A stretch of 64,000 nucleotides of DNA from assembly GCF_056746865.1 (NCBI RefSeq), contig NZ_CM163382.1. The stretch is one strand, 5' to 3'. Under the pieces are notes generated by a model. It was given only the letters and a program-made list of their open reading frames with translations, had not been told where the DNA came from and did not search any database. The position numbers and the translations under genes are program-made. Shown here piece by piece: positions 5,238-59,321 of this stretch. Positions within the stretch are counted from its first letter, which is position 1, and each line of letters begins with the position of its first letter.

Positions 5238-5633
5238 TTAACGGATTTCATTCAATAGTTCTGGATGCTTATCCAGAACACGTAAAAGTTTGATTGTGGA
5301 AGGATGAGGTTGGGCATTGCCTTTTTCGTAACGCGAAAACGCATTTACACCTCCCCCAAAAATTTCGCTTGCCTCTTTTTGGGTAAGAGAGAGCTTTTTT
5401 CGAACCTTCACTATAAATTCAGGTGCCACTGTTTCGGCATTCACCGAAGCCCGAAATGCCTTTACTTGCGCCATGAAAGCATCTGACTCTTCTTTATTCA
5501 TGATGCTCTCTTCGCAATGGACACAATATAAACCGTGGATACCTTTCAATACTGTTTTTCGTCCACGGAAGGTGTATGGAATATCTTTAATGCCAGAAAC
5601 CATTTCTCCCTGGTGGCAAACCGGACATTTCAT
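5238..5633 (-). CDS. mqsA: MqsA antitoxin (HTH-Xre, zinc-binding N-terminal domain)
   Basis: 131 aa; MKCPVCHQGEM...CVHCEE zinc motif plus C-terminal HTH; 1 bp downstream of mqsR. Confidence 0.9.
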   Translation of the reverse strand: MKCPVCHQGEMVSGIKDIPYTFRGRKTVLKGIHGLYCVHCEESIMNKEESDAFMAQVKAFRASVNAETVAPEFIVKVRKKLSLTQKEASEIFGGGVNAFSRYEKGNAQPHPSTIKLLRVLDKHPELLNEIR

Positions 5634-5634
5634 A

Positions 5635-5931
5635 TTACTTCTCCTTAAACGAGACGATCAGTACGTCATGAATTACCGTAATTTTAAGATAAACCTGGCC
5701 TGTAACAAGCCTGGGTCTGTAAACATCCTGCCAGATAGTATGATCAGAGTAGGTGGTCATGCTTTTATAAAAGTCGCTCTCTGATAATCCAATGATAACA
5801 TTACACATACCATCAAAATCCAAACCTAACTCATCTGCATTTAACAGGGCACTACGTGTTGTACGAACTTGCCCGGCATTGACAAGTTTTTTAACCTGAC
5901 TCAAACGTGTATGTGGTGTGCGTTTTTCCAT
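5635..5931 (-). CDS. mqsR: MqsR mRNA interferase toxin
   Basis: 98 aa; MEKRTPHTRLSQVKKLVNAGQVRTT matches MqsR; toxin-first operon with mqsA. Confidence 0.9.
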   Translation of the reverse strand: MEKRTPHTRLSQVKKLVNAGQVRTTRSALLNADELGLDFDGMCNVIIGLSESDFYKSMTTYSDHTIWQDVYRPRLVTGQVYLKITVIHDVLIVSFKEK

Positions 5932-19461: not shown

Positions 19462-21258
19462 ATGTTTGATAAATATAGAAAAACTCTGGTAGCCGGAGCT
19501 GTGGCGATAACTCTGGGTTTGTCAGCACCGGGGGTGATGGCAGCAGGTTTTAAACCCGCACCACCTGCCGGGCAACTGGGTGCAGTCATTGTCGATCCCT
19601 ACGGCAATGCACCACTGACCGCTTTGGTTGACTTAGATAGCCATGTCATTTCTGATGTCAAAGTTACCGTCCATGGGAAGGGCGAAAAAGGCGTAGAAAT
19701 CAGCTATCCCGTGGGTCAGGAATCACTAAAAACTTATGATGGTGTACCGATTTTTGGTCTTTATCAGAAATTTGCTAACAAAGTGACCGTTGAGTGGAAA
19801 GAAAACGGCAAGGTCATGAAAGATGATTATGTGGTGCACACTTCGGCCATCGTCAATAATTACATGGATAACCGCTCTATCTCCGATTTACAACAGACCA
19901 AAGTTATTAAAGTCGCACCGGGTTTTGAAGATCGCCTCTATCTGGTTAATACCCACACCTTTACCGCCCAAGGTTCCGATCTCCACTGGCATGGTGAGAA
20001 AGATAAAAATGCCGGTATCCTTGATGCGGGTCCGGCAACCGGCGCACTACCTTTTGATATCGCGCCCTTTACTTTCATTGTCGATACCGAAGGTGAATAC
20101 CGCTGGTGGCTGGATCAAGACACTTTCTACGATGGTCGTGACCGCGATATCAACAAGCGTGGTTATCTGATGGGTATCCGCGAAACACCACGCGGCACCT
20201 TTACCGCTGTACAAGGTCAGCACTGGTACGAGTTCGACATGATGGGGCAGGTGCTCGAAGATCACAAACTACCGCGCGGATTTGCTGACGCCACTCATGA
20301 GTCCATTGAGACGCCTAATGGCACAGTATTGTTGCGCGTAGGTAAGAGCAATTACCGTCGCGATGACGGCGTACACGTCACCACCATTCGTGACCATATC
20401 CTCGAAGTCGATAAATCTGGTCGCGTTGTCGATGTATGGGATCTGACCAAGATCCTCGATCCGAAACGCGATGCACTGCTCGGCGCGCTGGATGCAGGTG
20501 CAGTTTGCGTTAACGTTGACCTTGCCCATGCAGGACAACAGGCAAAACTGGAACCGGATACACCGTTCGGCGACGCGCTGGGTGTAGGGCCAGGTCGTAA
20601 CTGGGCGCACGTTAACTCAATCGCCTATGACGCAAAAGATGACTCAATCATCCTCTCCTCTCGCCACCAGGGTGTTGTGAAAATTGGTCGTGATAAGCAA
20701 GTGAAATGGATCCTTGCGCCCTCTAAAGGTTGGGAAAAACCGCTGGCCAGCAAGCTGCTGAAACCGGTTGATGCTAACGGTAAGCCAATTACCTGTAACG
20801 AAAATGGCCTGTGCGAAAACTCAGACTTCGACTTTACCTACACCCAGCATACCGCCTGGATTTCCAGCAAAGGAACGCTCACCATTTTTGATAATGGCGA
20901 TGGGCGTCATCTGGAACAACCTGCCTTACCAACCATGAAATACTCCCGCTTTGTGGAATATAAGATTGATGAGAAGAAAGGCACCGTTCAGCAAGTGTGG
21001 GAATACGGTAAAGAACGTGGCTACGATTTCTATAGCCCGATTACCTCCATCATTGAATATCAAGCCGACCGTAACACCATGTTTGGCTTCGGTGGTTCTA
21101 TTCATTTGTTCGATGTCGGGCAGCCAACCGTCGGTAAGTTGAACGAAATCGATTACAAAACCAAAGAAGTGAAAGTGGAAATCGACGTGCTGTCAGATAA
21201 ACCCAATCAGACTCACTATCGTGCACTGTTAGTCCGTCCACAACAGATGTTCAAATAA
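19462..21258 (+). CDS. assT: Arylsulfate sulfotransferase (periplasmic, signal peptide)
   Basis: 598 aa; signal peptide MFDKYRKTLVAGAVAITLGLSAPGVMA; family recognised from translation; followed by dedicated DsbL/DsbI genes. Confidence 0.85.
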   Translation: MFDKYRKTLVAGAVAITLGLSAPGVMAAGFKPAPPAGQLGAVIVDPYGNAPLTALVDLDSHVISDVKVTVHGKGEKGVEISYPVGQESLKTYDGVPIFGLYQKFANKVTVEWKENGKVMKDDYVVHTSAIVNNYMDNRSISDLQQTKVIKVAPGFEDRLYLVNTHTFTAQGSDLHWHGEKDKNAGILDAGPATGALPFDIAPFTFIVDTEGEYRWWLDQDTFYDGRDRDINKRGYLMGIRETPRGTFTAVQGQHWYEFDMMGQVLEDHKLPRGFADATHESIETPNGTVLLRVGKSNYRRDDGVHVTTIRDHILEVDKSGRVVDVWDLTKILDPKRDALLGALDAGAVCVNVDLAHAGQQAKLEPDTPFGDALGVGPGRNWAHVNSIAYDAKDDSIILSSRHQGVVKIGRDKQVKWILAPSKGWEKPLASKLLKPVDANGKPITCNENGLCENSDFDFTYTQHTAWISSKGTLTIFDNGDGRHLEQPALPTMKYSRFVEYKIDEKKGTVQQVWEYGKERGYDFYSPITSIIEYQADRNTMFGFGGSIHLFDVGQPTVGKLNEIDYKTKEVKVEIDVLSDKPNQTHYRALLVRPQQMFK

Positions 21259-21275
21259 TTAAGAAGGGAATAAAA

Positions 21276-21944
21276 ATGTCGAAATTAGGGATCTCATCAC
21301 TATTTAAAACCATACTGCTTACCGCAGCTTTGGCTGTTTCATTTACCGCTTCTGCATTTACCGAAGGCACGGATTACATGGTTCTGGAAAAACCTATTCC
21401 GAATGCCGACAAAACGCTGATTAAGGTATTTAGCTACGCCTGCCCGTTCTGTTACAAGTACGACAAAGCGGTTACCGGTCCGGTATCGGAAAAAGTGAAA
21501 GATATCGTTGCTTTTACTCCATTCCATCTGGAAACAAAAGGTGAATACGGCAAACAAGCAAGCGAAGTCTTTGCGGTCTTGATCAATAAAGATAAAGCAG
21601 CAGGTATTTCATTATTTGATGCTAACTCTCAGTTTAAGAAAGCCAAGTTTGCTTATTACGCGGCTTATCATGACAAAAAAGAACGCTGGTCTGATGGTAA
21701 AGATCCGGCTGCCTTTATCAAAACCGGACTGGACGCCGCAGGTATGAGTCAGGCCGATTTTGAAGCCGCGCTGAAAGAGCCTGCAGTTCAGGAAACGCTG
21801 GAAAAATGGAAAGCCTCTTATGAAGTTGCAAAAATCCAGGGCGTTCCGGCGTATGTCGTCAATGGTAAATACCTGATCTACACCAAGAGTATTAAATCTA
21901 TTGACTCAATGGCAGACCTTATCCGCGAGTTAGCAAGCAAATAA
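21276..21944 (+). CDS. dsbL: Periplasmic thiol:disulfide oxidoreductase DsbL (DsbA paralogue)
   Basis: 222 aa; signal peptide and CPFC active-site motif ([14 protein letters not shown]). Confidence 0.8.
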
Positions 21945-21958
21945 CAGGGAAACAGGCT

Positions 21959-22630
21959 ATGGGTATTAAGGGAATGTGGAAAGACCTTCGCACTTCACCG
22001 GTGGACACGCTGGTAAGATGGCAAGAACAACGTTTTTTGTGGTTGTTAATGGCCATTGCGATGGGCGCGTTAATTATCCTGGCGCACTCTTTCTTCCAGA
22101 TCTATCTCTACATGGCACCCTGTGAGCAATGTGTATACATTCGCTACGCCATGTTTGTGATGGTTATTGGAGGATTGGTTGCAGCGATCAACCCAAAGAA
22201 CATCATCCTAAAGCTAATTGGCTGCGTGATGGCATTTTACGGCAGCATTTTGGGACTGAAGTTTTCGCTCAAACTGAACGATATCCACCATGCAGTACAT
22301 AATCCGGATCCCGATTCACTGTTTGGCGTACAGGGTTGCTCTACCGATCCAACTTTTCCCTTTAACCTGCCGCTGGCACAGTGGGCACCAAATTGGTTCA
22401 AGCCTACCGGGGATTGTGGCTATGACGCACCAATCGTTCCTGATGGCGTCACACTGAGCAGCACGCAACAGTGGTTTGTGGAAATGTATCAGCAATCTGA
22501 AGGCTGGTATCTGCTACCACCATGGCATTTTATGAATATGGCTCAGGCTTGTATGCTGGCTTTTGGTATGTGTCTGGTGCTGCTGGTCATTATGAGTGGC
22601 GCATGGGCGCTTAAAATCATCAGAGGCTAA
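21959..22630 (+). CDS. dsbI: Membrane disulfide oxidoreductase DsbI (DsbB paralogue)
   Basis: 223 aa polytopic membrane protein with paired cysteines (CEQC) immediately downstream of dsbL. Confidence 0.8.
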
Positions 22631-25569: not shown

Positions 25570-25790
25570 CTTAGGAGTGGCGGCATATAGCCAAAATAAC
25601 GTGAGCGGGTCCATGCCCGACAGAATCGTTACTCTCTCCCATCCGGACTCTAACCGTCGGCCCCGGAATTACACCGGATCTGCTGTCCTTTGAGTTCGCA
25701 CCCAAAGCGCTCGCGGGCTTTCAACTGAGTTGATTTACCGCCGGTGGGGAATTTCGCCCCGCCCTGAGAATAAGCGGATTCACTATAACG
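25570..25790 (-). ncRNA. sroG: FMN riboswitch (RFN element, sroG) in ribB 5' leader
   Basis: Minus-strand sequence contains conserved aptamer blocks CAGATCCGGTGTAATTCCGGGGCCGACGGTTAGAGTCCGGATGGGAGAGAGTAACG upstream of ribB. Confidence 0.8.
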
Positions 25791-27355: not shown

Positions 27356-29017
27356 ATGGATGATATTGTTAATTCTGTGCCCTCCTGGATGTTTACCGCA
27401 ATTATTGCCGTATGCATTCTGTTTATTATTGGAATTATTTTCGCCAGGCTCTATCGTCGCGCTTCGGCAGAGCAAGCTTTTGTTCGTACTGGTTTAGGTG
27501 GGCAAAAAGTGGTAATGAGCGGTGGCGCAATCGTGATGCCGATCTTTCATGAAATAATCCCCATCAATATGAATACCCTGAAGCTGGAAGTCAGCCGCTC
27601 AACCATTGATAGCCTGATTACGAAAGATCGTATGCGCGTCGATGTCGTGGTCGCTTTCTTTGTGCGGGTAAAACCTTCAGTTGAAGGGATTGCCACCGCC
27701 GCCCAGACGCTGGGACAACGCACCCTGTCGCCTGAAGACTTACGTATGTTGGTTGAAGATAAATTTGTCGATGCCCTCCGTGCAACAGCTGCACAAATGA
27801 CCATGCATGAGTTACAGGATACCCGCGAGAACTTCGTGCAGGGAGTACAAAATACCGTAGCTGAAGATCTGTCGAAAAACGGCCTGGAACTGGAAAGCGT
27901 TTCACTTACCAACTTTAACCAGACGTCGAAAGAACATTTCAATCCTAACAACGCCTTTGACGCCGAAGGTTTAACCAAGCTGACGCAGGAGACGGAGCGC
28001 CGTCGTCGCGAACGTAACGAAGTTGAACAGGATGTAGAAGTTGCGGTGCGTGAGAAAAACCGTGATGCGCTTTCGCGCAAGCTGGAGATTGAACAACAAG
28101 AAGCGTTTATGACGCTTGAGCAGGAGCAGCAGGTTAAAACCCGTACCGCTGAGCAGAATGCGAAAATTGCGGCTTTTGAGGCCGAGCGTCGTCGGGAAGC
28201 AGAGCAGACGCGAATTCTGGCTGAACGACAGATTCAGGAAACGGAAATCGACCGCGAACAGGCCGTCCGTTCCAGAAAAGTTGAAGCTGAACGTGAAGTT
28301 CGCATTAAAGAGATCGAACAGCAGCAGGTCACCGAAATCGCCAACCAGACGAAATCGATCGCTATTGCCGCCAAATCGGAACAGCAGTCACAAGCGGAAG
28401 CGCGTGCCAACCTTGCACTTGCAGAAGCGGTAAGCGCCCAGCAAAACGTTGAAACCACTCGCCAGACCGCAGAAGCCGATCGTGCTAAACAAGTTGCCCT
28501 AATCGCTGCCGCGCAGGACGCGGAAACCAAAGCAGTCGAACTGACCGTCCGGGCGAAAGCTGAAAAAGAAGCCGCAGAGATGCAGGCGGCGGCAATCGTT
28601 GAGTTAGCCGAAGCTACGCGTAAAAAGGGTCTGGCGGAAGCAGAAGCGCAACGTGCGCTGAACGACGCTATCAACGTACTTTCTGACGAGCAAACCAGCC
28701 TTAAATTCAAACTGGCGCTATTACAATCATTACCTGCGGTAATAGAGAAATCCGTTGAGCCGATGAAGTCCATTGACGGCATCAAGATTATTCAGGTCGA
28801 TGGATTAAACCGAGGTGGCGCTGCGGGGAATGCGGCATCAGGCAGCGTTAGTGGCGGAAACCTGGCAGAACAGGCATTGTCTGCCGCCCTTTCTTACCGC
28901 ACACAGGCACCACTGATTGACTCCTTGCTCAATGAAATCGGTGTTTCTGGCGGCTCGCTGGCGGCATTGACTTCACCCTTAACATCAACAACTCCCGTCG
29001 AAGAAAAAACAGAGTAA
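27356..29017 (+). CDS. yqiK: SPFH/band-7 (flotillin-like) protein YqiK
   Basis: 553 aa; N-terminal TM, SPFH domain then long charged coiled-coil (EQ/AE/K rich). Confidence 0.85.
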   Translation: MDDIVNSVPSWMFTAIIAVCILFIIGIIFARLYRRASAEQAFVRTGLGGQKVVMSGGAIVMPIFHEIIPINMNTLKLEVSRSTIDSLITKDRMRVDVVVAFFVRVKPSVEGIATAAQTLGQRTLSPEDLRMLVEDKFVDALRATAAQMTMHELQDTRENFVQGVQNTVAEDLSKNGLELESVSLTNFNQTSKEHFNPNNAFDAEGLTKLTQETERRRRERNEVEQDVEVAVREKNRDALSRKLEIEQQEAFMTLEQEQQVKTRTAEQNAKIAAFEAERRREAEQTRILAERQIQETEIDREQAVRSRKVEAEREVRIKEIEQQQVTEIANQTKSIAIAAKSEQQSQAEARANLALAEAVSAQQNVETTRQTAEADRAKQVALIAAAQDAETKAVELTVRAKAEKEAAEMQAAAIVELAEATRKKGLAEAEAQRALNDAINVLSDEQTSLKFKLALLQSLPAVIEKSVEPMKSIDGIKIIQVDGLNRGGAAGNAASGSVSGGNLAEQALSAALSYRTQAPLIDSLLNEIGVSGGSLAALTSPLTSTTPVEEKTE

Positions 29018-29204
29018 ACCCTCTTCTATGAATAATCCCTGGCCCAAAAAGCCGGGGATTTTTTATATCTGCGTTCCGCTAAAAGGTGCAAATGATCAGG
29101 CTGTTGCAGCATTTTGCGTGACCGCTCGGGGAAGGGAAAACTGCCTCTGGGAAAGCGTTGCGCGGGGTCTGGCGCTCATCAACAATCGGGGAGTCAGCAG
29201 GGGG

Positions 29205-29350
29205 CTGAAACGGGAAAGCCCCTCCCGAAGAAGGGGCCTTATAGAAGGAAAGGGTTATGATGAAGCTCGTCATCATACTGATTGTGTTGTTACTAGTAAG
29301 TTTCCAGGCTTATTAACAACCAATTCAGAGGGGGGAGAAATCCTCCCTTA
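29205..29350 (-). ncRNA. sibD: Sib antisense RNA (antitoxin to Ibs), copy 1; boundaries approximate
   Basis: Antisense to ibs ORF; GC hairpin GCCCCT-CCCGAAGA-AGGGGC at 29217-29240 fits a minus-strand terminator; boundaries inferred. Confidence 0.5.
29257..29316 (+). CDS. ibsD: Ibs-family type I toxin (19 aa hydrophobic peptide MMKLVIILIVLLLVSFQAY)
   Basis: ATG ATG AAG CTC GTC ATC ATA CTG... TAA; matches Ibs toxin family; located between yqiK and hldE as ibsD/ibsE are in E. coli. Confidence 0.7.
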   Translation: MMKLVIILIVLLLVSFQAY

Positions 29351-29582
29351 CCCTTGTTCCTTTACTTTAGGTTGAAAAAAAATCAGCGTCAAGAAGGTTT
29401 CTCTATCCCACATCCCTGGCCCAAAAAGCCGGGGATTTTTTATATCTGCGTTCCGCTAAAAGGTGCAAATGATCAGGCTGTTGCAGCATTTTGCGTGACG
29501 GCTCGGGGAAGGCAAAACTGCATCAGGGAAAGCATTGCGCGGGGTCTGGCGCTCATCAACAATCGGGGAGTCAGCAAGGGGC

Positions 29583-29727
29583 TGAAACGGGAAAGCCCCT
29601 CCCGAAGAAGGGGCCTTGTATAAGGAAAGGGTTATGATGAAGCTGGTCATCATACTGATTGTGTTGTTACTCGTAAGTTTCGCAGCTTATTAACAGCCAA
29701 TCAGAGGGGGGAGAAATCCTCCCTCAC
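29583..29727 (-). ncRNA. sibE: Sib antisense RNA, copy 2; boundaries approximate
   Basis: Antisense to second ibs ORF; same hairpin structure as copy 1. Confidence 0.5.
29634..29693 (+). CDS. ibsE: Ibs-family type I toxin (MMKLVIILIVLLLVSFAAY)
   Basis: Second copy of 19-codon hydrophobic ORF; differs from copy 1 by Q17A. Confidence 0.7.
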   Translation: MMKLVIILIVLLLVSFAAY

Positions 29728-29812
29728 CCTTGTTCCTTTACTTTAGGTTGAAAAAAAAACAGCGTCAATAGGCCTGCCAGGTTCGAAGCGAGATCTGTGA
29801 ACCGCTTTCCGG

Positions 29813-31246
29813 TTAGCCTTTTTTATCCTGTTGGATCTTCTTGATGATGTTGGTCGTCGAGCAACCGTCTTCAAAGTTGAGCACCAACACTTCGCCACCG
29901 TTGGCCCAGACTTCTTTACTCCCGGCAATCTCTTCTGGTTTATAGTCGCCGCCTTTCACCAGCAGGTCTGGCAAGATCCCGGCGATCAGGCGCTGCGGCG
30001 TGTCTTCTTCAAACGACACCACCCAGTCGACCGCTTCCAGTGCACCCAGCACAATCATACGCTGCTCGAGAGGGTTAACGGGGCGGGAATCCCCTTTCAG
30101 CCGTTTGGTGGAAGCATCGCTGTTGACGGCGACAATCAAACGGTCACCCAGTTTACGGGCATTTGCCAGATAAGAGACGTGCCCGGCGTGCAGGATGTCA
30201 AAGACGCCATTGGTCATTACCACCTTTTCGCCGCGTTTACGCGCCGCCGCCACAGCAAGCTTCAGTTCCTCTTCGGTCATCACACCAAAGCCGGTATCTG
30301 CACGTCCACGTACTGCGTTTTCCAGCTCGATCGGCGAAACCGTGGATGTCCCCAGTTTGCCGACCACTACGCCTGCCGCCGCATTAGCAAAGAAGCAGGC
30401 TTCTTCCAGCGAATTACCCGCCGCCAGCGTTGCCGCCAGGACACCAATCACCGTGTCGCCCGCACCGGTAACGTCATACACTTCCTGCGCCTGAGTTGGC
30501 ATATGCAGCGGCGTTTTGCCCGGTTGCAGCAGCGACATACCCTGTTCGGAACGGGTCACTAACAGAGCCGAGAGTTCGTAATCGGCAATCAGTTTCATGC
30601 CGCGTTCAACAATCTCTTCTTCGGTCTTACATTTACCGACAACAGCTTCAAATTCCGAGAGATTCGGCGTTAACAGCGTAGCGCCGCGGTAGCGCTCAAA
30701 ATCGGTGCCTTTTGGATCAATCAGCACCGGAACGCCCGCTTTACGCGCCAGTTGGATCATCTGCTGCACGCTTGCCAGCGCACCTTTCGCGTAGTCAGAG
30801 AGCACCAGCGCGCCAATCGAACTCAGCGCCTGATTAATCCGCTCGTGCAGCGGCTGCGGATCAACCCCTTCGAAACCTTCTTCAAAATCCAGACGGATCA
30901 GCTGTTGGTTGCGGGAAAGTACCCGTAATTTGGTGATGGTCGGATGCGTCGGTACAGAAACGAAGTCGCATTTGACGTTGACGTCGGCCAGAGATTTACT
31001 CAGCGCGCGCGCTGCATCGTCAATGCCCGTCAACCCGACCAGGCGTGCATTAGCACCGAGAGAAGCGATATTCATCGCCACGTTAGCCGCGCCGCCCGGA
31101 CGTTCTTCGATGGTATTCACTTTAACCACGGGCACCGGCGCTTCCGGCGAGATACGACTGGTGGGGCCGTACCAGTAACGATCCAGCATCACATCACCAA
31201 CCACCATCACTCCTGCACGTTCAAACTCTGGCAGCGTTACTTTCAT
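29813..31246 (-). CDS. hldE: Bifunctional D-beta-D-heptose 7-phosphate kinase / heptose 1-phosphate adenylyltransferase
   Basis: 477 aa; ribokinase-like N-domain and cytidylyltransferase C-domain ([10 protein letters not shown]). Confidence 0.95.
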
Positions 31247-49878: not shown

Positions 49879-50003
49879 ATTTACTCCTTTCTAACATCAC
49901 CAGGAAAAGTATAACGGATTGAAAATACATTGTTTATAAAAACAGCAGGCGCGCGGTAATGGCTGGATTGCGACACGGAGTTACTTTATAATCCGCTACC
50001 ATG

Positions 50004-50078
50004 GCCCCTTAGCTCAGTGGTTAGAGCAGGCGACTCATAATCGCTTGGTCGTTGGTTCAAACCCAACAGGGGCCACCA
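50004..50078 (+). tRNA. ileX: tRNA-Ile (anticodon CAU; lysidine-modified Ile2 type)
   Basis: GGCCCCTTAGCTCAGTGGTTAGAGCAGGCGACTCATAATCGCTTGGTCGTTGGTTCAAACCCAACAGGGGCCACCA; cloverleaf with CAT anticodon in loop CTCATAA; encoded CCA. Confidence 0.9.
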
Positions 50079-50088: not shown

Positions 50089-50121
50089 AGGGTTAGCTAA
50101 TAAACCAGCTAACCCTTTTTC
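50089..50121 (+). terminator. tRNA-Ile intrinsic terminator
   Basis: AGGGTTAGCT-AATAAACC-AGCTAACCCT followed by TTTTTCTTTTT. Confidence 0.65.
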
Positions 50122-50176
50122 TTTTTCCTTTGAATTGGGTCAGGTAATGGGTCAGGTAAGCTTTTTTCCATCTGAC

Positions 50177-51022
50177 TCAGATGGCTGATAATTGTCCCGG
50201 ATAACGCTTTGCAATGATGTCATTTAGCCGATCAACCAGTTCTGGTTTTCTGAATGTGATATGCGCGGAGCCCTTCTTAAAGTATCTGATGCTGAACATC
50301 TCATCTTCATAGCTCTCTTTACCCTGAACAGACTGAATGTGCTCATCCAGACGAATAGTGATGTTTTCCCGATTGTCGGGGATTGGTTTACCGCTGAACA
50401 GGTGCAACATTCTTTCCAGATCGGCGAGTCGGTCAGCCTGTTGTCCGGTGATAAGATGAAATCCCCACCGGTCCCATCTCACCAGATTGTTGACGATAAT
50501 TTTACTGCCAAATTTACAGGGGCAATTGGTTTTGTAATTCCAGTTCAGCCCTCTGAAGACGTTGATCACCCCTCGCTCAAACACCTCATCCTTATTCTGG
50601 TGCAGTTGTTCAAATGTGCTCAGGATGTTCGCTTCGCTGATTTCCGGAAAATTATCGTACTCCAGTGACCGGTACCATGTCTCACGGGCCTGTGCATCCA
50701 TTAAGGAAAGCATCCCGGAACGTTGCATCAAGTCACGCCAGATTTCACGATCGAGATTGTGTGTGATGGCTTTCATTGCCGTTTCAGGTTTCTCCATGAG
50801 CCAGCAGCCACAGCGAAAATCCTGTTTCATCGCCCAGTCCAGTGCGGTTTTACCGCCAATACTTTCTGTCATTGCTGAGATTTCAGCCAGTTGCCGGATA
50901 AGTGTGTTGATTTGCAGCAGTGTACTTTTTCGTACAGCCAGAATGTGGCGGATACTGGTTGAGCAGATAACGTCCGTATGCCCGTTGACTACTTCCGGAC
51001 GGGAGGCTGTGATATCAGACAT
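50177..51022 (-). CDS. Uncharacterised island protein (281 aa; possibly DUF4942 family)
   Basis: Long clean ORF at tRNA-proximal end of island; family assignment from memory only. Confidence 0.55.
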   Translation of the reverse strand: MSDITASRPEVVNGHTDVICSTSIRHILAVRKSTLLQINTLIRQLAEISAMTESIGGKTALDWAMKQDFRCGCWLMEKPETAMKAITHNLDREIWRDLMQRSGMLSLMDAQARETWYRSLEYDNFPEISEANILSTFEQLHQNKDEVFERGVINVFRGLNWNYKTNCPCKFGSKIIVNNLVRWDRWGFHLITGQQADRLADLERMLHLFSGKPIPDNRENITIRLDEHIQSVQGKESYEDEMFSIRYFKKGSAHITFRKPELVDRLNDIIAKRYPGQLSAI

Positions 51023-51118
51023 AATCGATATTCCTTTTTGCAGATAAATGAAAACGCCAGCCCTGTTCAGGCTGGCGTCAGTGGAATGAAGTCTGGTGAG
51101 TGAGATGATGAGTGAAAC

Positions 51119-51316
51119 TCACCGGTTCGGGGGCTGAAGCTGCAGTTGGCGCAGGGTACGGATATCCTCCCTGGCCTGTTCAATACAGGACAACAGGGCT
51201 GTCGAATCCGTTTTATCCTCATCGTTGTCAAAGATAATTCCGGATTCACAGTCGATATTGTCCTGCAGCCACGCAATCAGAATATCCAGCGCTGTTTCCG
51301 TGGTTAATGATTTCAT
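51119..51316 (-). CDS. Small uncharacterised island protein (65 aa from MKSLTTET; possibly DUF957)
   Basis: ORF 51119..51361 trimmed to internal Met to avoid overlap with upstream ORF; acidic small protein. Confidence 0.4.
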   Translation of the reverse strand: MKSLTTETALDILIAWLQDNIDCESGIIFDNDEDKTDSTALLSCIEQAREDIRTLRQLQLQPPNR

Positions 51317-51327
51317 GTTGTTTCTGG

Positions 51328-51816
51328 TTACCAGTCGAAAGTGGGTAAATCCGGCAGACACCCGGCGCTGGCATCCAGATGAATAAGACTGACGCCATAA
51401 CGCCGGATGAGAGTGACAACCAGACGGCGGAAGGTTTTTGACAGGCCCAGACGTTTAAGGTGTAGCACCGGATACGACAAAGCATCGGTACGTAACAGAT
51501 ACCCTCTGCCTGTAAAATGAATCCATTCTGATTCGCCGGTGTCATTCGTCTGATGCGACAGCGAGTACAGCCAGGTGTTGTCCGTTTCCGTGATATGTGC
51601 GGTACTGCAGCGTATGCCGGTAAGGGCAGCAAATGGTGGCGTGCAGTCTGCTGAGGTCCGGTCAGATTCATCAACAACACGAAGGGAGTAGCCGTTATCG
51701 CAGATCATGTTAATCAGTTCAGCGAGATTAACACCATCAATGTCAACGACAATTCGCCCCATATTCAGTGCCTGTACGTTAACGCTGTCGGCTTCCAGTG
51801 TCAGGGTCAGTTGCAT
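51328..51816 (-). CDS. YeeW-like uncharacterised protein downstream of cbtA
   Basis: 162 aa ORF immediately after cbtA stop, position equivalent to yeeW in CP4-44. Confidence 0.45.
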
Positions 51817-52190
51817 CGTTTCGACTCCTGATGCTTACCCAGGGTAATGTTATTTACCGTTCTGTAATTGTCGCGGGTCATCAGGCCGGTTGCCCGGCGA
51901 GCCCGGAGAATATCAATACTGTTTATTAACTGAGAGCGGGTACAGGCGCTGAATCCCGGCTGGTCGGTACGTACCAGTGCGTATTTTTCAACGAGAAAGT
52001 TCACCGCATCGCACAGTGAAATGCCTGCCTCAATATGCTGCTCAATCACACGTTCATCAGCGAACGGTGTGTCATTCAGCGTAAGGCCGTAATGCTGGTC
52101 CAGCAGTCGGGTGAGCAGTGTCTGCCAGATTTCAACCGGAGACGGGCGTGAACTGGCCGCCTGCCCGGGTAATACAGGTAATGTTTTCAT
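51807..52190 (-). CDS. cbtA: CbtA/YeeV-family type IV toxin (cytoskeleton-binding toxin)
   Basis: ORF trimmed to [23 protein letters not shown]...; family conserved sequence. Confidence 0.8.
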
Positions 52191-52279
52191 ACTGAAGATT
52201 TTCCTGATATGCAGAGATGAAAAATGGAAAAGTGGCGTGGTGAAAGCACCAGGCCGGAGCAGAAGGTTATTCTGGATAG

Positions 52280-52648
52280 TTACCTTTTCGTTTCGGGCGT
52301 CGGATAAACAGCCATATAAACGTAGCCACAACTGCCGAGGGTGTCGGCTTCGCAGGTCAGCCCTTTTGCATACAGCGTGACGGTATGCTGATGGCGGGAA
52401 TTCAGTTCACCGCTGGTGAGCATGAGTTCCAGTTGTTTCATCAGCAGCGGAAAGGCCTGGTCCAGGTGGTACGAATCCGCGTCGCTGAACCGGCCTCTGA
52501 TACCGGCGCGGTCGGCAAGGTAATGCAACCGGTTGCCCTCCTGCACCAGACGGGCGCCAAAACAAGGTGTCACGGTACAGGGCAGCCCCCACCAGGGGCG
52601 GTCGTGATTGTCATCGGGATGCGTTGTCCCGGGCAGTGTGTCTGACAC
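52280..52648 (-). CDS. cbeA: CbeA/YeeU-family antitoxin
   Basis: 122 aa; [48 protein letters not shown]. Confidence 0.8.
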
Positions 52649-52727
52649 AATAAAATCCTCACAGAAAATTGGTTAAGAATGGTCCGGTGGTGGCGATAAT
52701 TCTGCTCTTCTGAATGCCCTTCCGGAC

Positions 52728-52949
52728 TCAGTTCAGGGTGACGCTCATCAGCCGGACATACGGACCAAAACTGTCCTTACGGCGTTCTGCAAACACAGCC
52801 AGCACACCGGGAATATCCTGCACTTCACGGCCGGTATATGTATCCGTGCTACCGTGCCAGCGGTATTTGCCGGTACAGAACGGAAAAAGACGGGATGCCG
52901 GATGTTGTTGGTGAATACGCATGGCTTCACCACGGGTGATGATTTTCAT
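52728..52949 (-). CDS. YeeT/DUF987 protein
   Basis: 73 aa; MKIITRGEAMRIHQQHPASRLFPF; conserved partner upstream of cbeA. Confidence 0.7.
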   Translation of the reverse strand: MKIITRGEAMRIHQQHPASRLFPFCTGKYRWHGSTDTYTGREVQDIPGVLAVFAERRKDSFGPYVRLMSVTLN

Positions 52950-53017
52950 GGTGTGATACCTCTTAAGACAGAAGATAAAAGTGAAAACAGGTGTGATGTG
53001 GTGGTGACGGTGACGGG

Positions 53018-53494
53018 TTAAAGCAGACCGTGTTCCGCAAAGGAGAAAACCTGGCTGCCACCGACTATCAGATGGTCCGGTACCCGGATATCCACCAGGC
53101 CCAGTGCCTGTACCAGACGTTCCGTGATAAGGCGGTCTGCCTTGCTGGGTGTGACTTCACCGGACGGGTGATTGTGTGCCAGCACCACGGCAGCGGCATT
53201 GTGGTACAGGGCACGTTTAATCACTTCCCGGGGATGGACTTCCGTGCGGTTGATGGTGCCGGTGAAGAGGGTTTCACCGGCAATCAGCTGATTCTGGTTG
53301 TTCAGATACAGCACCCGGAACTCTTCCCGCTCCAGTCCCGCCATGTTCAGAATCAGCCACTCCCGTGCCGCATGCGTGGAGGTGAAGGCCACGCCGGGTT
53401 CATGAAGATGGCGGTCCAGGGTTTTCAGGGCCCGCTGAATGAGGCTGCGCTCGCCGGGCGTCATCTCTCCGGGCAGAAAAGAAAGCTGTTGCAT
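53018..53494 (-). CDS. RadC-like JAB-domain protein (YeeS/YfjY family)
   Basis: 158 aa; JAMM motif HNHPSGEVTPSKAD. Confidence 0.85.
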   Translation of the reverse strand: MQQLSFLPGEMTPGERSLIQRALKTLDRHLHEPGVAFTSTHAAREWLILNMAGLEREEFRVLYLNNQNQLIAGETLFTGTINRTEVHPREVIKRALYHNAAAVVLAHNHPSGEVTPSKADRLITERLVQALGLVDIRVPDHLIVGGSQVFSFAEHGLL

Positions 53495-53508
53495 TGTTCC
53501 GGCCCCTT

Positions 53509-53994
53509 TCAGTCAATGATGCGCATAATGGCGTTGCATTCCGGATGCTGCAGGGCGTAATCCCGCAGCCGGTAATAATGGACCGTCATGGCATAACACT
53601 CCGTACGACAGGCATGATGGCTGTACGTCATCAGACAGGCAGCAATGCCGGCGGCTTCCGGGCTCATTTCAGCGCGGTTACCGTTCATGGCACTGAACAG
53701 TACCCATGTTTCGTCATCATCGTCATCCGGTTCGGGTGCCATAAATGCCCCGCCGTTGTTCAGGGTGTACAGATTCCAGATACCACCACAGTAGTCTTCG
53801 CACAGACGATCCATCCAGCCGAAGACACGGGGCTCCAGGGTCACCCACTGTGGAATGAGGCCAAAATGCTGCGGCCAGAAGCTGATGCGCTGTTCATCAG
53901 GGACGAGGGTGGCAACCAGTTGAGGCGGGTTATTCTCTGATACAGCGGTTACGGAAACAGAAGGTGTGGTGGAATTATGCAAAACGGTTGTCAT
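53509..53994 (-). CDS. Antirestriction protein (ArdB/KlcA/YfjX family)
   Basis: 161 aa; family-typical C-terminal region; position upstream of radC-like gene as in CP4-57 yfjX. Confidence 0.7.
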   Translation of the reverse strand: MTTVLHNSTTPSVSVTAVSENNPPQLVATLVPDEQRISFWPQHFGLIPQWVTLEPRVFGWMDRLCEDYCGGIWNLYTLNNGGAFMAPEPDDDDDETWVLFSAMNGNRAEMSPEAAGIAACLMTYSHHACRTECYAMTVHYYRLRDYALQHPECNAIMRIID

Positions 53995-54084
53995 GAGATT
54001 ATTCCTTATAAAAAGTAAATGAATGGAAGAAGTCGCGGGGCAGGGACGGACATGAGTCAGAACTGCGCTTTCAGGGAAAAGGCA

Positions 54085-54903
54085 TCAGCGCATACTCTTC
54101 AGCAGTGTTTCTGCCATCACCCACAATGCGCGATTGAGCTTAATGTCGGTGTCGATGCTGTGAATGGCACGGGTATGGATACGTTTTCCTCTGGCACTGC
54201 GACCGGAAATCCCGCCTTTCAGCATATTCTCCTGGATGGTCTGATAAGCACTCCACAGGTCCTTACCGTAATCCTCCCGGCGTCGCGGTGTCAGAATGTC
54301 AGCAGCGGTGACGGGCTGATGTTCGTCACCATAACGGTAAGTCAGTGCCGCCTGTGCCAGCGCCTGGCGTGCCGGTGGCGGCAGGACCAGCGACTGCATG
54401 GCATCACGCTTCTCCTCAATCCGGTCAAAAACCCCCACCACCTCGTAAGCCCCTTCGATAACTTTCTCCACTACGTCTCCCCGGTGTGGAACACGCACTT
54501 CCCCCAGAGACTGACCACAGACGCATCCGTTCTGGCAGACGAACCTGAAGTAACCCGGCAGCATCTGGTAGCTGGAGGTACCGTCATGGGAGTTCAGCAG
54601 GATGATTTCAGGGACATGTTGTCCGTTTATCTCCCCGTCACGGCGCAGACGCAGCATGTGTTTGGTGTATCCCCGGCGGCCCGGGTCGCGCACGCGGGTC
54701 TGGCAGGCGAAGAATGGCTGGAAGCCTTCCCGCTGCAGGCTTTCCAGCACGGTGATGGTGGGGATCCAGGTATAGTTCTCGCTTCTGGATGTGTGTTTCT
54801 CTTCCCCGAATACGCTGGGGACGACCTGCATCAGTTCTTCACGGGTTAAGGGGCGGTCACGGCGTATCTGGTTCGCATAACCAAAACGACTGGCTAATCG
54901 CAT
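54085..54903 (-). CDS. DUF932 protein (YfjQ/YafZ family)
   Basis: 272 aa; MRLASRFGYANQIRRDRPLTREELMQVVPSVFGEEKH. Confidence 0.75.
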   Translation of the reverse strand: MRLASRFGYANQIRRDRPLTREELMQVVPSVFGEEKHTSRSENYTWIPTITVLESLQREGFQPFFACQTRVRDPGRRGYTKHMLRLRRDGEINGQHVPEIILLNSHDGTSSYQMLPGYFRFVCQNGCVCGQSLGEVRVPHRGDVVEKVIEGAYEVVGVFDRIEEKRDAMQSLVLPPPARQALAQAALTYRYGDEHQPVTAADILTPRRREDYGKDLWSAYQTIQENMLKGGISGRSARGKRIHTRAIHSIDTDIKLNRALWVMAETLLKSMR

Positions 54904-55174
54904 GATTTATTCCTTATGAATGAGTTAGCGGTGTAAATGAAAAAGCCGCGTCTCCCGGAGAAGACGCGGCCTGATGGACGAAATGAATGACGTTTATTGT
55001 CTGAGAAGCCCTTCACTGGCGAGCTGCGTATTTTTATGGAAGGAGATCACCCAATAACCCCATCGGGATCGGGCAATAACCGGCCAAATTGTGAACGATT
55101 CAGATGCCATTTGGCAGCAAAAGAGCCTTCGGCAATAAACGTGATGTACAACCCGGCATATCTGTTGCTCCCTG

Positions 55175-55207
55175 AAAGTAAAAAGCCCCGGTCATTATGA
55201 CCGGGGC
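55175..55207 (-). terminator. Ag43 intrinsic terminator
   Basis: GCCCCGGTCAT-TATGACCGGGGC hairpin followed on minus strand by TTTTTACTTTC. Confidence 0.6.
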
Positions 55208-55229
55208 CTGAAGGGGAGTGACCTGATTA

Positions 55230-58076: not shown

Positions 58077-58293
58077 CAGCTTTTCCTTACAGAGGGTGAA
58101 TAAAAAAGCCGGTACCCACAAATGTGGATACCGGCAGGTACAAAACAGCATGGTCAGATAAAGTGGTTTTTCCCGGACATAAATGCTTCCCCTCTCTCAT
58201 CCGCCAGAGAAGTATCAGTCCGTTGTGTGCAATTCCGTTCTGCATGATGAAGAGATTCAACTGCCTTTTCGCAGGCCATTAACCACTATAAAC

Positions 58294-58329
58294 GATCGAT
58301 AGTAACGATCGATACCTGTTTTATTGATC
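58294..58329. promoter_or_regulatory. Three clustered Dam GATC sites (Ag43 phase-variation switch / OxyR operator)
   Basis: GATC at 58294, 58307 and 58326 within 36 bp (AACGATCGATAGTAACGATCGATACCTGTTTTATTGATCG) ~220 bp upstream of Ag43 start. Confidence 0.7.
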
Positions 58330-58448
58330 GTTTTATTCTATTGATTGCAAGGCGGTCACGCAAGAGAAACAGGAGGATCATGAGGTGTTTGTGTCATGTT
58401 TTCAGTTGGTTAACGCAATGTAATCAGGCATTTCCCCTGGCAGACTGT

Positions 58449-59321
58449 TCAGAAGAAAATCCAGTTCCATACAGCGCGGGCAACAGAGACCACCGAGTCA
58501 CGGACGGCACGCAGAACCGTGCGTGCAACAGAGGCAATACAGACGCTCTCCGCCGTGTCAAATATCCGGTCCACCGCACCGGTAAACTGTTCACGGGCCT
58601 GAGACCGGACAGATTCCGTGCGCAGCTCGTCCTGCAGGCGGGTCATCAGGGGACTGGCGGCATGGTCGGGAAGCGCTGTCATGAGCGCACTGACCAGCGT
58701 ATCCAGTTCCCAGCCGGTGCAGGCCGATACGGCCACAACCGGATGTACGGGTCGGAACAGCCGGAATACCGCATCTGTTTTCTCACGAATGTTCTGTGCC
58801 TGTGCGGGAGAAGGCTGAATGCCGGCCATATCCCATTCATGGCAGGGCTCCGTTTTGTCGGCCTGCGTCACCACAAACAGTACCCGCTGATGTCCCCGGT
58901 GCAGGATGTGTCGCCAGAAATACTCATCCACAGACAGGGCACGGTCATCGGCTTTAATCAGCCACAGTACCAGGTCAAGTTCAGGCAGAATGTTACGGTA
59001 CAGGGCTTCATACTCTGCATCCCTGTCCCGGCTCTCGCCCACCCCGGGCAGGTCAGTGATAATCATGCTGTGACCGTGGCCACTCAGACGGAAGCGCTGC
59101 ACTTCCCGGGTGCCGGCGTGAACATCACTGACCGGTGTGACTTCCCCCTGAAACAGCGCATTACAGAGTGAGGATTTACCGGCCCCGCTTTTACCCATAA
59201 TGCCAATCACGGGTTCGTGGCTGGTGAGTTTACGCAGATGTTCCAGGATGTGACGGGAAAGCGAATAAGGCAGGGAGGAGAGCGGTTTTTCAATTGCCTC
59301 AATGGCATCAGACGGATTCAT
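58449..59321 (-). CDS. YfjP/YeeP/YkfA-family GTPase
   Basis: P-loop GKSGAGKSS, G3 DLPG, G4 TQADK; start taken at MNPSDAIEAIEK (ORF extends to 59360). Confidence 0.75.
   Translation of the reverse strand: MNPSDAIEAIEKPLSSLPYSLSRHILEHLRKLTSHEPVIGIMGKSGAGKSSLCNALFQGEVTPVSDVHAGTREVQRFRLSGHGHSMIITDLPGVGESRDRDAEYEALYRNILPELDLVLWLIKADDRALSVDEYFWRHILHRGHQRVLFVVTQADKTEPCHEWDMAGIQPSPAQAQNIREKTDAVFRLFRPVHPVVAVSACTGWELDTLVSALMTALPDHAASPLMTRLQDELRTESVRSQAREQFTGAVDRIFDTAESVCIASVARTVLRAVRDSVVSVARAVWNWIFF

What the first reader, a model, noticed from the sequence alone, without database searches (positions are those of the whole stretch)
29025..29775. Tandem duplication of an Ibs toxin / Sib antisense RNA unit
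Two roughly 380-bp units each encode a 19-aa hydrophobic peptide (MMKLVIILIVLLLVSF-Q/A-AY) with antisense potential on the opposite strand and flanking hairpins. The copies differ by one residue and small indels, which allows each antisense RNA to discriminate its own toxin mRNA.
Basis: partly seen in the sequence, partly recalled or inferred. Interest (0 to 1): 0.45.

Follow-up and report, generated by a model that had tools for sequence, protein, structure and literature searches.

The report
Known E. coli Ibs/Sib toxin-antitoxin pair
This is the well-known pair of tiny toxin genes (ibs), each silenced by an antisense RNA (Sib), that sits between yqiK and hldE in almost every E. coli; it is ordinary, apart from this strain carrying an uncommon, recombined pair of alleles.

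Summary
Window 29035-29768 is a 377/376-bp tandem repeat with 17 differences in 358 columns. Each unit carries a 19-codon hydrophobic ORF on the + strand (29257-29316 MMKLVIILIVLLLVSFQAY; 29634-29693 MMKLVIILIVLLLVSFAAY). Each also gives a full-length Rfam SIB_RNA match on the - strand (142.5 and 150.2 bits; gathering score 56).

It is the classical sibD/ibsD-sibE/ibsE type I toxin-antitoxin locus in the yqiK-hldE spacer. The locus is present in 5425 of 5426 complete E. coli genomes, and RefSeq already annotates both Ibs peptides in a genome identical here. Novelty: already known.

- The true Sib transcripts are 29357->29213 and 29733->29590. The Rfam hit is shifted about 35 nt because the model includes the promoter.
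- The copies differ mainly by substitutions, with a single 1-nt indel. Six of the 17 differing sites lie in the two experimentally defined target-recognition domains, including the triplet that switches SibC/SibD specificity.
- The downstream copy is not IbsE-like. Its peptide equals K-12 IbsD, and the unit is a D/E mosaic.

A 12-strain sample shows pervasive recombination among units and copy-number variation. Discrimination between the two copies is plausible but untested; cross-talk through TRD2 is not excluded.

The parts
29035..29411 (.). Repeat unit 1 (377 bp), at the 'sibD/ibsD' position next to yqiK
   Evidence: TRF period 377; the repeat finder D1/D2
29412..29768 (.). Repeat unit 2 (repeated part 357 bp; then unique flank up to the hldE stop at 29813), at the 'sibE/ibsE' position
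   Evidence: identical over 358/358 columns to the single unit of strain 118UI
29034..29067 (+). Terminator-like hairpin plus T-run at the start of unit 1 (likely the yqiK terminator; duplicated as part of the unit)
   Evidence: scan, 10-bp stem; function inferred
29158..29186 (+). Inferred ibs-1 promoter: TTGCGC-17 nt-AACAAT (8/12, below the scan threshold)
   Evidence: Read from the sequence. It is placed so that the start site falls about 18 nt upstream of the Sib 3' end, as reported for ibsC/ibsD (PMC2943612). Inferred.
29195..29357 (+). Inferred ibs-1 mRNA (about 163 nt, +/- a few nt at each end)
   Evidence: By analogy with the 163-nt ibsD RNA and 18-nt 5' overhang in PMC2943612. Fold -64.5 kcal/mol, z -4.6, with codon 17 in an apical tetraloop.
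29257..29316 (+). ibs-1 ORF, 19 aa MMKLVIILIVLLLVSFQAY (RefSeq WP_071528379.1), preceded by an AAGGAAAGGG Shine-Dalgarno region
29213..29357 (-). Sib-1 antitoxin RNA, 145 nt, +1 = A at 29357
   Evidence: Aligned to the K-12 sibD annotation. Fold -53.5 kcal/mol, z -4.5, with the published P1/P2/P5/P6/J1-7/P7 layout. Rfam 142.5 bits.
29358..29392 (-). Sib-1 promoter, TTGACG-17-TAAAGT; identical 35/35 to the K-12 sibD minimal promoter
   Evidence: PMC12956327
29288..29310 (-). Sib-1 TRD1 (Sib +48..+70, equivalent to SibC +46..+68); differs from Sib-2 at 4 of 23 nt, including the CUG/UGC triplet opposite ibs codon 17
   Evidence: PMC2943612
29241..29257 (-). Sib-1 TRD2 (Sib +101..+117; J1/7 single strand opposite the ibs Shine-Dalgarno/start region); differs from Sib-2 at 2 of 17 nt
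29215..29240 (-). Sib-1 intrinsic terminator hairpin (P7), followed by UUUCC
   Evidence: fold
29412..29443 (+). Second copy of the terminator-like hairpin plus T-run, at the start of unit 2 (downstream of ibs-1)
29535..29563 (+). Inferred ibs-2 promoter (TTGCGC-17-AACAAT)
   Evidence: Same sequence as in unit 1; inferred
29572..29733 (+). Inferred ibs-2 mRNA (about 162 nt)
   Evidence: By analogy; fold -69.2 kcal/mol, z -5.3
29634..29693 (+). ibs-2 ORF, 19 aa MMKLVIILIVLLLVSFAAY; identical to K-12 IbsD (RefSeq WP_001387081.1), not to IbsE
29590..29733 (-). Sib-2 antitoxin RNA, 144 nt, +1 = A at 29733; TRD1 at 29665-29687 (identical to K-12 SibD), TRD2 at 29618-29634 (identical to K-12 SibE), terminator at 29592-29617
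29734..29768 (-). Sib-2 promoter TTGACG-17-TAAAGT; 1 nt different from K-12 sibD (in the spacer) and 2 nt different from K-12 sibE

Best explanation
The region holds two adjacent, complete Ibs/Sib type I toxin-antitoxin modules. It is the E. coli chromosomal locus known in K-12 as sibD/ibsD-sibE/ibsE.

In each module the + strand gives a roughly 160-nt mRNA for a 19-aa hydrophobic membrane peptide. This peptide family is toxic when over-produced in K-12, and Salmonella IbsA inhibits the Fo sector of ATP synthase. The - strand gives a constitutive Sib RNA of about 145 nt that starts with A, runs from a sigma-70-type promoter, and is fully complementary to the ORF and ribosome-binding site.

Sib contacts its mRNA first through two exposed segments. 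TRD1 is a loop opposite codons 13-20 of ibs. TRD2 is a single-stranded junction opposite the Shine-Dalgarno sequence and start codon. Pairing then spreads, blocking translation and triggering RNase III-dependent decay, so the toxin stays off.

The two copies here differ in both TRDs to the same degree as K-12 pairs that do not cross-react. Each Sib therefore most likely controls mainly its own ibs.

Shown here: sequence, structure, promoter identity, synteny and allele comparison. Inferred from K-12 and Salmonella work: expression, toxicity, repression and specificity.

This strain's haplotype (a Q17 variant upstream; a D-type core in an E-type frame downstream) arose by recombination or gene conversion among the tandem units.
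For: - Rfam SIB_RNA full-length hits of 142.5 and 150.2 bits against a gathering score of 56. The K-12 sibD and sibE loci give 147.7 and 142.1 bits with the same model.
- Synteny yqiK-[ibs][ibs]-hldE is identical to K-12.
- The locus is present in 5425/5426 complete E. coli genomes.
- The ibs-2 peptide is identical to K-12 IbsD, and ibs-1 differs from it by A17Q. Both are annotated 'type I toxin-antitoxin system Ibs family toxin' in RefSeq.
- The Sib-1 promoter matches the experimentally defined 35-bp sibD minimal promoter 35/35, with +1A (PMC12956327).
- Both Sib RNAs fold into the published architecture with z-scores of -4.5 and -4.35.
- TRD definitions and the C->D specificity swap at G49-U51 come from PMC2943612. 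The window copies differ at exactly that triplet.
- Duplex energies: TRD1 cognate -38.3/-38.9 versus cross -22.8/-23.5 kcal/mol; TRD2 cognate -25.4/-24.9 versus cross -19.3/-19.6. These gaps equal or exceed those of the K-12 C/D and D/E pairs.
- Mechanism (translation block plus RNase III): PMC4147584. Toxin target: bioRxiv 10.1101/2025.05.26.656083.
- Mosaic and recombination evidence.
Against: - No expression, toxicity or repression data exist for this haplotype.
- K-12 annotates IbsD only as a 'putative toxic peptide'.
- The ibs promoter is weak by consensus (8/12) and was not picked up by the scan.
- Sib-1 and Sib-2 share 23 contiguous identical nt (+91..+113) across the Shine-Dalgarno/start region and differ at only 2 of 17 TRD2 positions, so specificity through TRD2 may be leaky.
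- Clustering of the inter-copy differences in the TRDs is significant by sites (p = 0.0065) but not when the 3-nt block is counted as one event (p = 0.07).
Confidence: 0.92

Rival explanations
1. Both modules are real, but the two Sib RNAs are not specific. Because the copies are 95% identical, each Sib represses both ibs mRNAs, making a redundant, mutually buffered pair rather than two insulated circuits.
For: - The window's units are the most similar pair among nine two-unit strains (95.0% versus 87-93%).
- TRD2 differs at only 2 of 17 nt, and 23 nt around the Shine-Dalgarno/start region are identical.
- Han et al. report that either TRD alone can repress, and that ibsA is repressed by non-cognate Sibs (PMC2943612).
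- Strain 144 carries the same TRD2 allele in both units.
Against: - TRD1 differs at 4 of 23 nt, including the triplet whose exchange switches SibC to ibsD. The cross-duplex loses about 15 kcal/mol, more than the non-reacting SibC/ibsD pair.
- Both TRD2 mismatches lie in the 9-nt single-stranded J1/7 segment.
- SibA and SibE share TRD2, yet SibA does not repress ibsE (PMC2943612).
Confidence: 0.25
2. One or both units are decaying relics: conserved repeat DNA whose ibs gene is no longer expressed or no longer toxic. On this view only the Sib RNA (if anything) has a role, for example as an NAD-capped sRNA acting in trans.
For: - K-12 IbsD is only a 'putative' toxin.
- Unit number varies, and single-unit strains are common (ST131, 118UI, 181.1). 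A unit is therefore dispensable.
- The ibs promoter is a poor consensus match.
Against: - All 22 units sampled from 13 genomes keep an intact 19-codon ORF with a Shine-Dalgarno sequence. Amino-acid changes are confined to a few positions.
- Promoters, terminators and folds are intact in both window units.
- Han et al. needed cognate SibD to tolerate an ibsD plasmid (PMC2943612).
Confidence: 0.06
3. The tandem repeat is an assembly or scaffolding artefact, or a chance repeat with chance short ORFs.
For: None beyond the general risk that tandem repeats carry in assemblies.
Against: - The same two-unit structure is found in thousands of independent complete genomes.
- Rfam E-values are about 1e-30.
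- The two copies differ at 17 positions, so they are not a collapsed or duplicated read artefact.
Confidence: 0.01

Closest known systems
E. coli K-12 sibD/ibsD-sibE/ibsE (b4447/b4664, b4611/b4666), the type I TA tandem pair between yqiK and hldE
   Same: - Same genomic position, orientation, unit length (about 376 bp) and architecture.
- Sib-1 promoter identical to the sibD promoter.
- ibs-2 peptide identical to IbsD.
- Sib-2 TRD1 equals SibD TRD1, and Sib-2 TRD2 equals SibE TRD2.
   Different: - No E-type (…VVLLLLSFPTY) core is present.
- The upstream unit carries a Q17 allele (SFQAY) with its own TRD1.
- The downstream unit is a D/E mosaic.
- The spacer is only 93.5% identical to K-12.
- The exact alleles occur in only about 2-3% of complete genomes.
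K-12 sibA/ibsA-sibB/ibsB (yegL-mdtA spacer) and sibC/ibsC (fau-serA spacer)
   Same: Same family. About 160 nt (the Sib/ibs core) aligns at 79-80% identity. IbsA shares the C-terminal SFQAY and the AAGCCUGGAA core of TRD1 with window Sib-1.
   Different: The homology stops at the roughly 160-nt core. The ~160 nt upstream part of the 377-bp D/E unit is not shared. SibA and SibB start with G rather than A (PMC12956327).
Other duplicated chromosomal type I TA families: ZorO/OrzO-ZorP/OrzP of EHEC, Ldr/Rdl long direct repeats, Helicobacter AapA/IsoA
   Same: A small hydrophobic toxin plus an antisense RNA, present in tandem or multi-copy form, with sequence differences that confer cognate specificity (PMC3919570 abstract; PMC4147584; PMC8594479).
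   Different: These are unrelated in sequence. In Ibs/Sib the antisense RNA spans the entire ORF, unlike Zor/Orz, Ldr/Rdl and Hok/Sok (PMC8594479).

Membership tests
Ibs/Sib type I toxin-antitoxin (Rfam RF00113 SIB_RNA) | A roughly 140-nt Sib RNA with the conserved sequence and secondary structure of the family | tested here: met
   cmscan 142.5 and 150.2 bits (gathering 56), model positions 1-147 of 147. MFE folds reproduce P1, P2, P5, P6, J1/7 and P7 with z about -4.4.
Ibs/Sib type I toxin-antitoxin (Rfam RF00113 SIB_RNA) | An 18-19 aa highly hydrophobic ORF on the opposite strand, wholly inside the Sib-complementary region, with its own Shine-Dalgarno sequence | tested here: met
   ORFs 29257-29316 and 29634-29693 lie inside Sib 29213-29357 and 29590-29733. 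The peptides are identical or 1 aa different from K-12 IbsD, and 15-16 of 19 residues are hydrophobic. RefSeq names both 'Ibs family toxin'.
Ibs/Sib type I toxin-antitoxin (Rfam RF00113 SIB_RNA) | An independent sigma-70-type promoter and an intrinsic terminator for Sib | tested here: met
   TTGACG-17-TAAAGT in both units. Unit 1 matches the experimentally defined sibD minimal promoter 35/35 (PMC12956327). Terminator hairpins appear in the folds.
Ibs/Sib type I toxin-antitoxin (Rfam RF00113 SIB_RNA) | An ibs promoter and transcript of about 160 nt | tested here: inconclusive
   A TTGCGC-17-AACAAT match (8/12) sits at the position expected from the 18-nt 5' overhang reported for ibsC/ibsD. It was not detected by the consensus scan, and no transcript data are available.
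Ibs/Sib type I toxin-antitoxin (Rfam RF00113 SIB_RNA) | Toxicity of Ibs on over-expression and repression by the cognate Sib | not testable with these tools
   Known for K-12 members (PMC2943612, PMC4147584). ibs-2 encodes the same peptide as K-12 ibsD.
Ibs/Sib type I toxin-antitoxin (Rfam RF00113 SIB_RNA) | Copies within one genome differ in TRD1 and TRD2, the variable recognition domains | tested here: met
   4 of 23 (TRD1) and 2 of 17 (TRD2) positions differ between Sib-1 and Sib-2. Cross-duplex energy losses are 15 and 5-6 kcal/mol.
sibD/ibsD-sibE/ibsE locus specifically | Location between yqiK and hldE (rfaE), two tandem units | tested here: met
sibD/ibsD-sibE/ibsE locus specifically | Downstream unit encodes IbsE (MMKLVIILVVLLLLSFPTY) with SibE-type TRD1 | tested here: not met
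   The downstream ORF encodes the IbsD sequence. The ORF/TRD1 segment is 99/100 identical to K-12 unit D and 88/100 to unit E, and only the TRD2/terminator segment is E-type (62/62). It is positionally sibE but by sequence a D/E mosaic.
NCBIfam / Pfam Ibs toxin models | A protein-profile hit | tested here: inconclusive
   hmmscan of 23- and 25-aa extended translations against NCBIfam gave only irrelevant hits at E = 0.14. The peptide is below the length limits of profile_search and the listing of cluster members.

The most novel reading that the evidence does not exclude
The tandem Ibs/Sib units behave as a recombining cassette system. ORF/TRD1 'cores' (types D, E, Q, AT) and TRD2 alleles (ACAG, ATAG, GTAT) are exchanged between units and strains by gene conversion and unequal crossing-over. 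This creates new Sib-ibs specificity combinations and varies copy number, possibly under selection that keeps the two resident copies distinguishable at TRD1. On this reading the window's haplotype (Q core upstream, D core in an E frame downstream) is a specificity-turnover event rather than neutral drift.
Probability: 0.3. Interest if true: 0.3.

Novelty: already known. Interest (0 to 1): 0.12.

Why it matters
As an annotation it matters little. The locus has been characterised experimentally in K-12, and both peptides are already named in RefSeq.

Three practical points follow.
- Rfam SIB_RNA coordinates are offset by about 35 nt from the real transcript: they include the promoter and miss the terminator. 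PGAP annotates the Ibs CDSs but not the Sib RNAs in the matching record.
- Positional naming (ibsD/ibsE) does not track sequence type, because units recombine.
- Natural allele combinations such as this one are ready-made test cases for the TRD1/TRD2 specificity model. They show same-core/different-TRD2 and different-core/same-TRD2 pairings that were made artificially in the 2010 study.

Tried and rejected
1. NCBIfam hmmscan on the Ibs peptides, extended to 23 and 25 aa to meet the length limit: no Ibs model hit, only noise at E = 0.14.
3. The founding paper (Fozo et al. 2008, PMC2597788) and the MMBR review (PMC2593563) are not held. I relied on Han 2010, Wen & Fozo 2014 and later papers that cite them.
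4. I first assumed the window equals NZ_CP030768.1 throughout. This is wrong beyond 50,091, where an island follows the tRNA. It does not affect the finding, since positions 1-50,091 are 99.976% identical.
5. I took the Rfam hit coordinates as transcript boundaries, then rejected this. The model starts at the -35 box and ends before the terminator.
6. Test for clustering of inter-copy differences in the TRDs: significant by sites (p = 0.0065), not by events (p = 0.07). I do not claim it as proof of selection.
7. Permissive Rfam scan of the spacer for other RNAs in the ~160 nt upstream half of each unit: nothing credible.
8. A simple 'recent duplication' origin for the 95% identity: rejected in favour of a mosaic or gene-conversion origin.
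9. Literature search for prior descriptions of allele shuffling at this locus: none found in the held library, which is not evidence that none exists.

Full report
**1. What is in the sequence**

The stretch between the stop of a 553-aa ORF (27356-29017, +) and the stop of a 477-aa ORF (29813-31246, -) is 795 bp. Most of it is a two-copy tandem repeat.
- Tandem Repeats Finder reports 29035-29768: period 377, 1.9 copies, 95% matches, score 1343.
- The repeat finder reports the same two copies with spacings 377 and 376.
- A global alignment of the repeated parts has 17 differences in 358 columns: 16 substitutions and one 1-nt indel.

Each unit has a 19-codon ORF on the + strand:
- 29257-29316 encodes MMKLVIILIVLLLVSFQAY.
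- 29634-29693 encodes MMKLVIILIVLLLVSFAAY.

**2. Identification**

A scan of the whole window against Rfam gives two full-length SIB_RNA (RF00113) matches on the - strand. They lie at 29242-29392 (142.5 bits) and 29619-29768 (150.2 bits), against a gathering score of 56, with E-values near 1e-30.

A megablast of 28950-29850 against 5,426 complete E. coli genomes finds the locus in 5,425 of them, always between yqiK and hldE. One record, NZ_CP030768.1, is 100% identical. In that record both small ORFs are annotated 'type I toxin-antitoxin system Ibs family toxin' (WP_071528379.1 and WP_001387081.1).

In K-12 MG1655 the same spacer carries sibD/ibsD and sibE/ibsE. The same Rfam model scores them 147.7 and 142.1 bits. 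So this is the classical Ibs/Sib type I toxin-antitoxin tandem locus.

**3. True boundaries**

The Rfam consensus begins UUGACA…, which is the Sib -35 box. The promoter scan finds TTGACG-17-TAAAGT at exactly the start of both Rfam hits (29392..29364 and 29768..29740, - strand). Aligning to the K-12 sibD/sibE ncRNA annotations places the transcripts as follows:
- Sib-1 runs 29357->29213 (145 nt).
- Sib-2 runs 29733->29590 (144 nt).
- Both start with A.

The 35 bp upstream of Sib-1 are identical to the K-12 sibD '35-bp minimal promoter', which drives transcription and NAD capping from +1A (PMC12956327). The Sib-2 promoter differs from it by one spacer base.

Both RNAs fold into the published layout. 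This comprises the P1 closing stem, the P2 hairpin, a large P5 loop, the P6 hairpin, the single-stranded J1/7 segment and the terminator P7. Energies are -53.5 and -53.6 kcal/mol, z-scores are -4.5 and -4.35, and 0 of 200 shuffles fold as well.

For ibs, Han et al. report RNAs of about 160 nt with an 18-nt 5' overhang beyond the Sib 3' end (PMC2943612). This puts the ibs starts near 29195 and 29572. They lie just downstream of a weak TTGCGC-17-AACAAT match that I read from the sequence (inferred; below the scan threshold).

The + strand hairpins at 29034-29060 and 29412-29436 are terminator-like. The first probably terminates yqiK and was copied with the unit.

**4. How it works**

This section rests on established knowledge applied to this sequence.
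- Sib overlaps the whole ibs ORF and ribosome-binding site. Pairing blocks translation and leads to RNase III-dependent decay (PMC4147584).
- Recognition starts at two independent domains of SibC. TRD1 (+46..+68, the P5 loop) lies opposite the 3' part of the ORF. TRD2 (+99..+115, J1/7) lies opposite the translation-initiation region.
- Changing G49-C-U51 to UGC re-targets SibC TRD1 to ibsD (PMC2943612).
- Ibs peptides are membrane-active. Salmonella IbsA binds the Fo a and b subunits, blocks proton translocation and lowers ATP (bioRxiv 10.1101/2025.05.26.656083).

**5. Can the two copies tell each other apart?**

Of the 17 inter-copy differences, 6 lie upstream of ibs, 10 lie in the Sib transcript and 1 lies in the Sib promoter. 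The 10 differences within the Sib transcript are:
- a 3-nt block, CUG versus UGC, at exactly the SibC 49-51 position; this is ibs codon 17, CAG(Q) versus GCA(A)
- one more substitution in TRD1 (codon 13, synonymous)
- two in the single-stranded part of TRD2
- one in the P6 loop (codon 4, synonymous)
- three elsewhere, including the indel.

That is 6 of 40 TRD positions against 11 of 318 elsewhere (Fisher p = 0.0065). Counted as events it is 4 against 11 (p = 0.07), so I do not call it proof of selection.

Duplex energies of the isolated domains:

| Domain | Cognate (kcal/mol) | Cross (kcal/mol) |
|---|---|---|
| TRD1 | -38.3 / -38.9 | -22.8 / -23.5 |
| TRD2 | -25.4 / -24.9 | -19.3 / -19.6 |

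For calibration, SibC on ibsD gives -27.7 against a cognate -37.5 for TRD1, and -19.1 against -27.6 for TRD2. That pair shows no repression and no binding at 37 C (PMC2943612). K-12 SibE on ibsD gives a TRD2 value of -19.6 against -24.9.

Predicted ibs mRNA folds put the variable triplet in or next to an apical tetraloop: UCCA versus UCGC. This fits a loop-loop first contact.

The discriminators are substitutions rather than indels, and the claim is untested. Sib-1 and Sib-2 also share 23 identical nt (+91..+113) across the Shine-Dalgarno sequence and start codon, so TRD2-mediated cross-talk cannot be excluded.

**6. What is unusual about this haplotype**

K-12 IbsD is MMKLVIILIVLLLVSFAAY and IbsE is MMKLVIILVVLLLLSFPTY. 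Here the downstream (positional 'E') unit encodes the IbsD peptide, and no E-type core exists.

At the sites that distinguish K-12 units D and E, window unit 2 shows three zones:
- E-type at 29577-29621 (ibs 5' UTR, Sib terminator, TRD2)
- uninterruptedly D-type from 29658 to 29757 (ORF, TRD1, Sib 5' part, most of the promoter)
- E-type again from 29759 into the unique flank.

Segment identities say the same. The ORF segment is 99/100 identical to K-12 D and 88/100 to K-12 E. The TRD2/terminator segment is 62/62 identical to K-12 E and 58/63 to K-12 D.

The upstream unit carries a third core type, Q17. Its ORF segment is 101/101 identical to the single unit of turkey strain 181.1.

I sampled 22 units from 13 genomes, the window plus 12 reference strains.
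- TRD2-target alleles ACAG, ATAG and GTAT occur in most combinations with cores D, E, Q and AT.
- In the cleaned set of 20 units, 214 of 595 informative site pairs show all four gametes. The Hudson-Kaplan minimum is 10 events in about 360 bp.

Copy number also varies.
- ST131, 181.1, 118UI and 1002W03 have one unit.
- 118UI carries the same YqiK and HldE proteins as the window haplotype, and its lone unit is identical to window unit 2 over 358/358 columns. This is an evident unit loss by unequal crossing-over.
- The D-type probe fails to match 1,065 genomes by megablast, which suggests that many strains lack a D-type core (rough inference).

The window's two units are the most alike of nine two-unit strains (95.0% against 87-93%). 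The apparent 'recent duplication' is better read as partial homogenisation.

The exact alleles are uncommon. Sib-1 is >=99% identical in 176 records, Sib-2 in 182, and the whole 901 nt in 123 of 5,425.

**7. Comparison with other family members**

Only the roughly 160-nt core aligns with the sibA/B and sibC loci, at 79-80% identity. The ~160 nt upstream half of the 377-bp unit is private to the D/E locus. A permissive Rfam scan finds nothing else there.

**8. Verdict**

The element is already known and already annotated, and it fits the published mechanism. The mosaic allele structure and the recombination among units are a modest population-genetic curiosity. They offer natural test cases for the TRD model but no new kind of system. 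Interest is low.

Noticed in passing
window 50091-64000: The window is 99.976% identical to NZ_CP030768.1 only up to 50,091. Right after the tRNA(CAU) at 50003-50078, that record continues with nfeF/aer/ebg genes while the window carries a different block, apparently an island inserted at the tRNA. The block holds a 973-aa Ag43/Cah autotransporter (55230-58151, -; NF033177, 1983 bits), a RadC-family protein (53018-53494, -), a YeeP-like GTPase (58449-59360, -), and type I R-M hsdM (59585-61141, +) and hsdS-like (61138-62343, +) genes.
   Followed up: partly
window 58095-58331 (-): An Rfam IS102 RNA hit (74 bits, gathering 46) lies between the GTPase ORF and the start of the Ag43 ORF, with a strong terminator-like 3' hairpin. 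It overlaps the first ~57 nt of the long ORF as called from its first ATG.
   Followed up: partly
window 29242-29392 and 29619-29768 (Rfam) vs 29213-29357 and 29590-29733 (transcripts): The Rfam SIB_RNA model (RF00113) begins at the Sib -35 box and ends before the terminator. Its hit coordinates are therefore displaced about 35 nt upstream of the annotated K-12 Sib RNAs. The same offset is seen on K-12 itself.
   Followed up: yes
window 27518-29017 (yqiK 3' part) and 29813-31246 (hldE): The flanking genes are unusually diverged from K-12 for E. coli core genes. The last 1500 nt of yqiK are 92.4% identical and hldE is 96.7% identical. This suggests the whole neighbourhood is a recombination-prone or old divergent haplotype.
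   Followed up: no
L002/L006 (NZ_CP030768.1), window 29213-29733: The RefSeq (PGAP) record annotates both Ibs CDSs, the FMN riboswitch and the tRNA, but no Sib ncRNA. The K-12 record annotates sibD and sibE.
   Followed up: yes
L011 (strain 144, NZ_CP023364.1) 945-1380: This strain's two units share the same TRD2-target allele (ACAG) and differ only in the core/TRD1 (SFATY versus SFPTY). It is a natural 'same TRD2, different TRD1' pair.
   Followed up: partly
L012 (strain 1002W03, NZ_CP147056.1) 1-993: An ISEc13 (IS4-like) transposase lies immediately upstream of the single ibs/Sib unit, where yqiK lies in the other strains.
   Followed up: no
L016 (strain 06_3235) 1-706: yqiK is annotated as a pseudogene (internal stop) next to an intact two-unit ibs/Sib locus.
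   Followed up: no
window 28997-29018 vs 29371-29392 and 29747-29768: The last 22 nt of yqiK (GTCGAAGAAAAAACAGAGTAAA) resemble the A-rich end of each repeat unit, which is the Sib -35 region, at 77-82% identity. This could be a vestige of the duplication junction or chance similarity in A-rich sequence.
   Followed up: no
window 5238-5931 (-), 19462-22630 (+), 25627-25775 (-): Other annotated features in the window, read from the annotation of the identical RefSeq record:
- the mqsR/mqsA type II toxin-antitoxin pair
- a cluster of aryl-sulfate sulfotransferase, DsbA/DsbL-type thiol:disulfide interchange protein and DsbI between ygiC and ygiD
- the FMN riboswitch upstream of ribB (Rfam 120.9 bits)
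.
   Followed up: no
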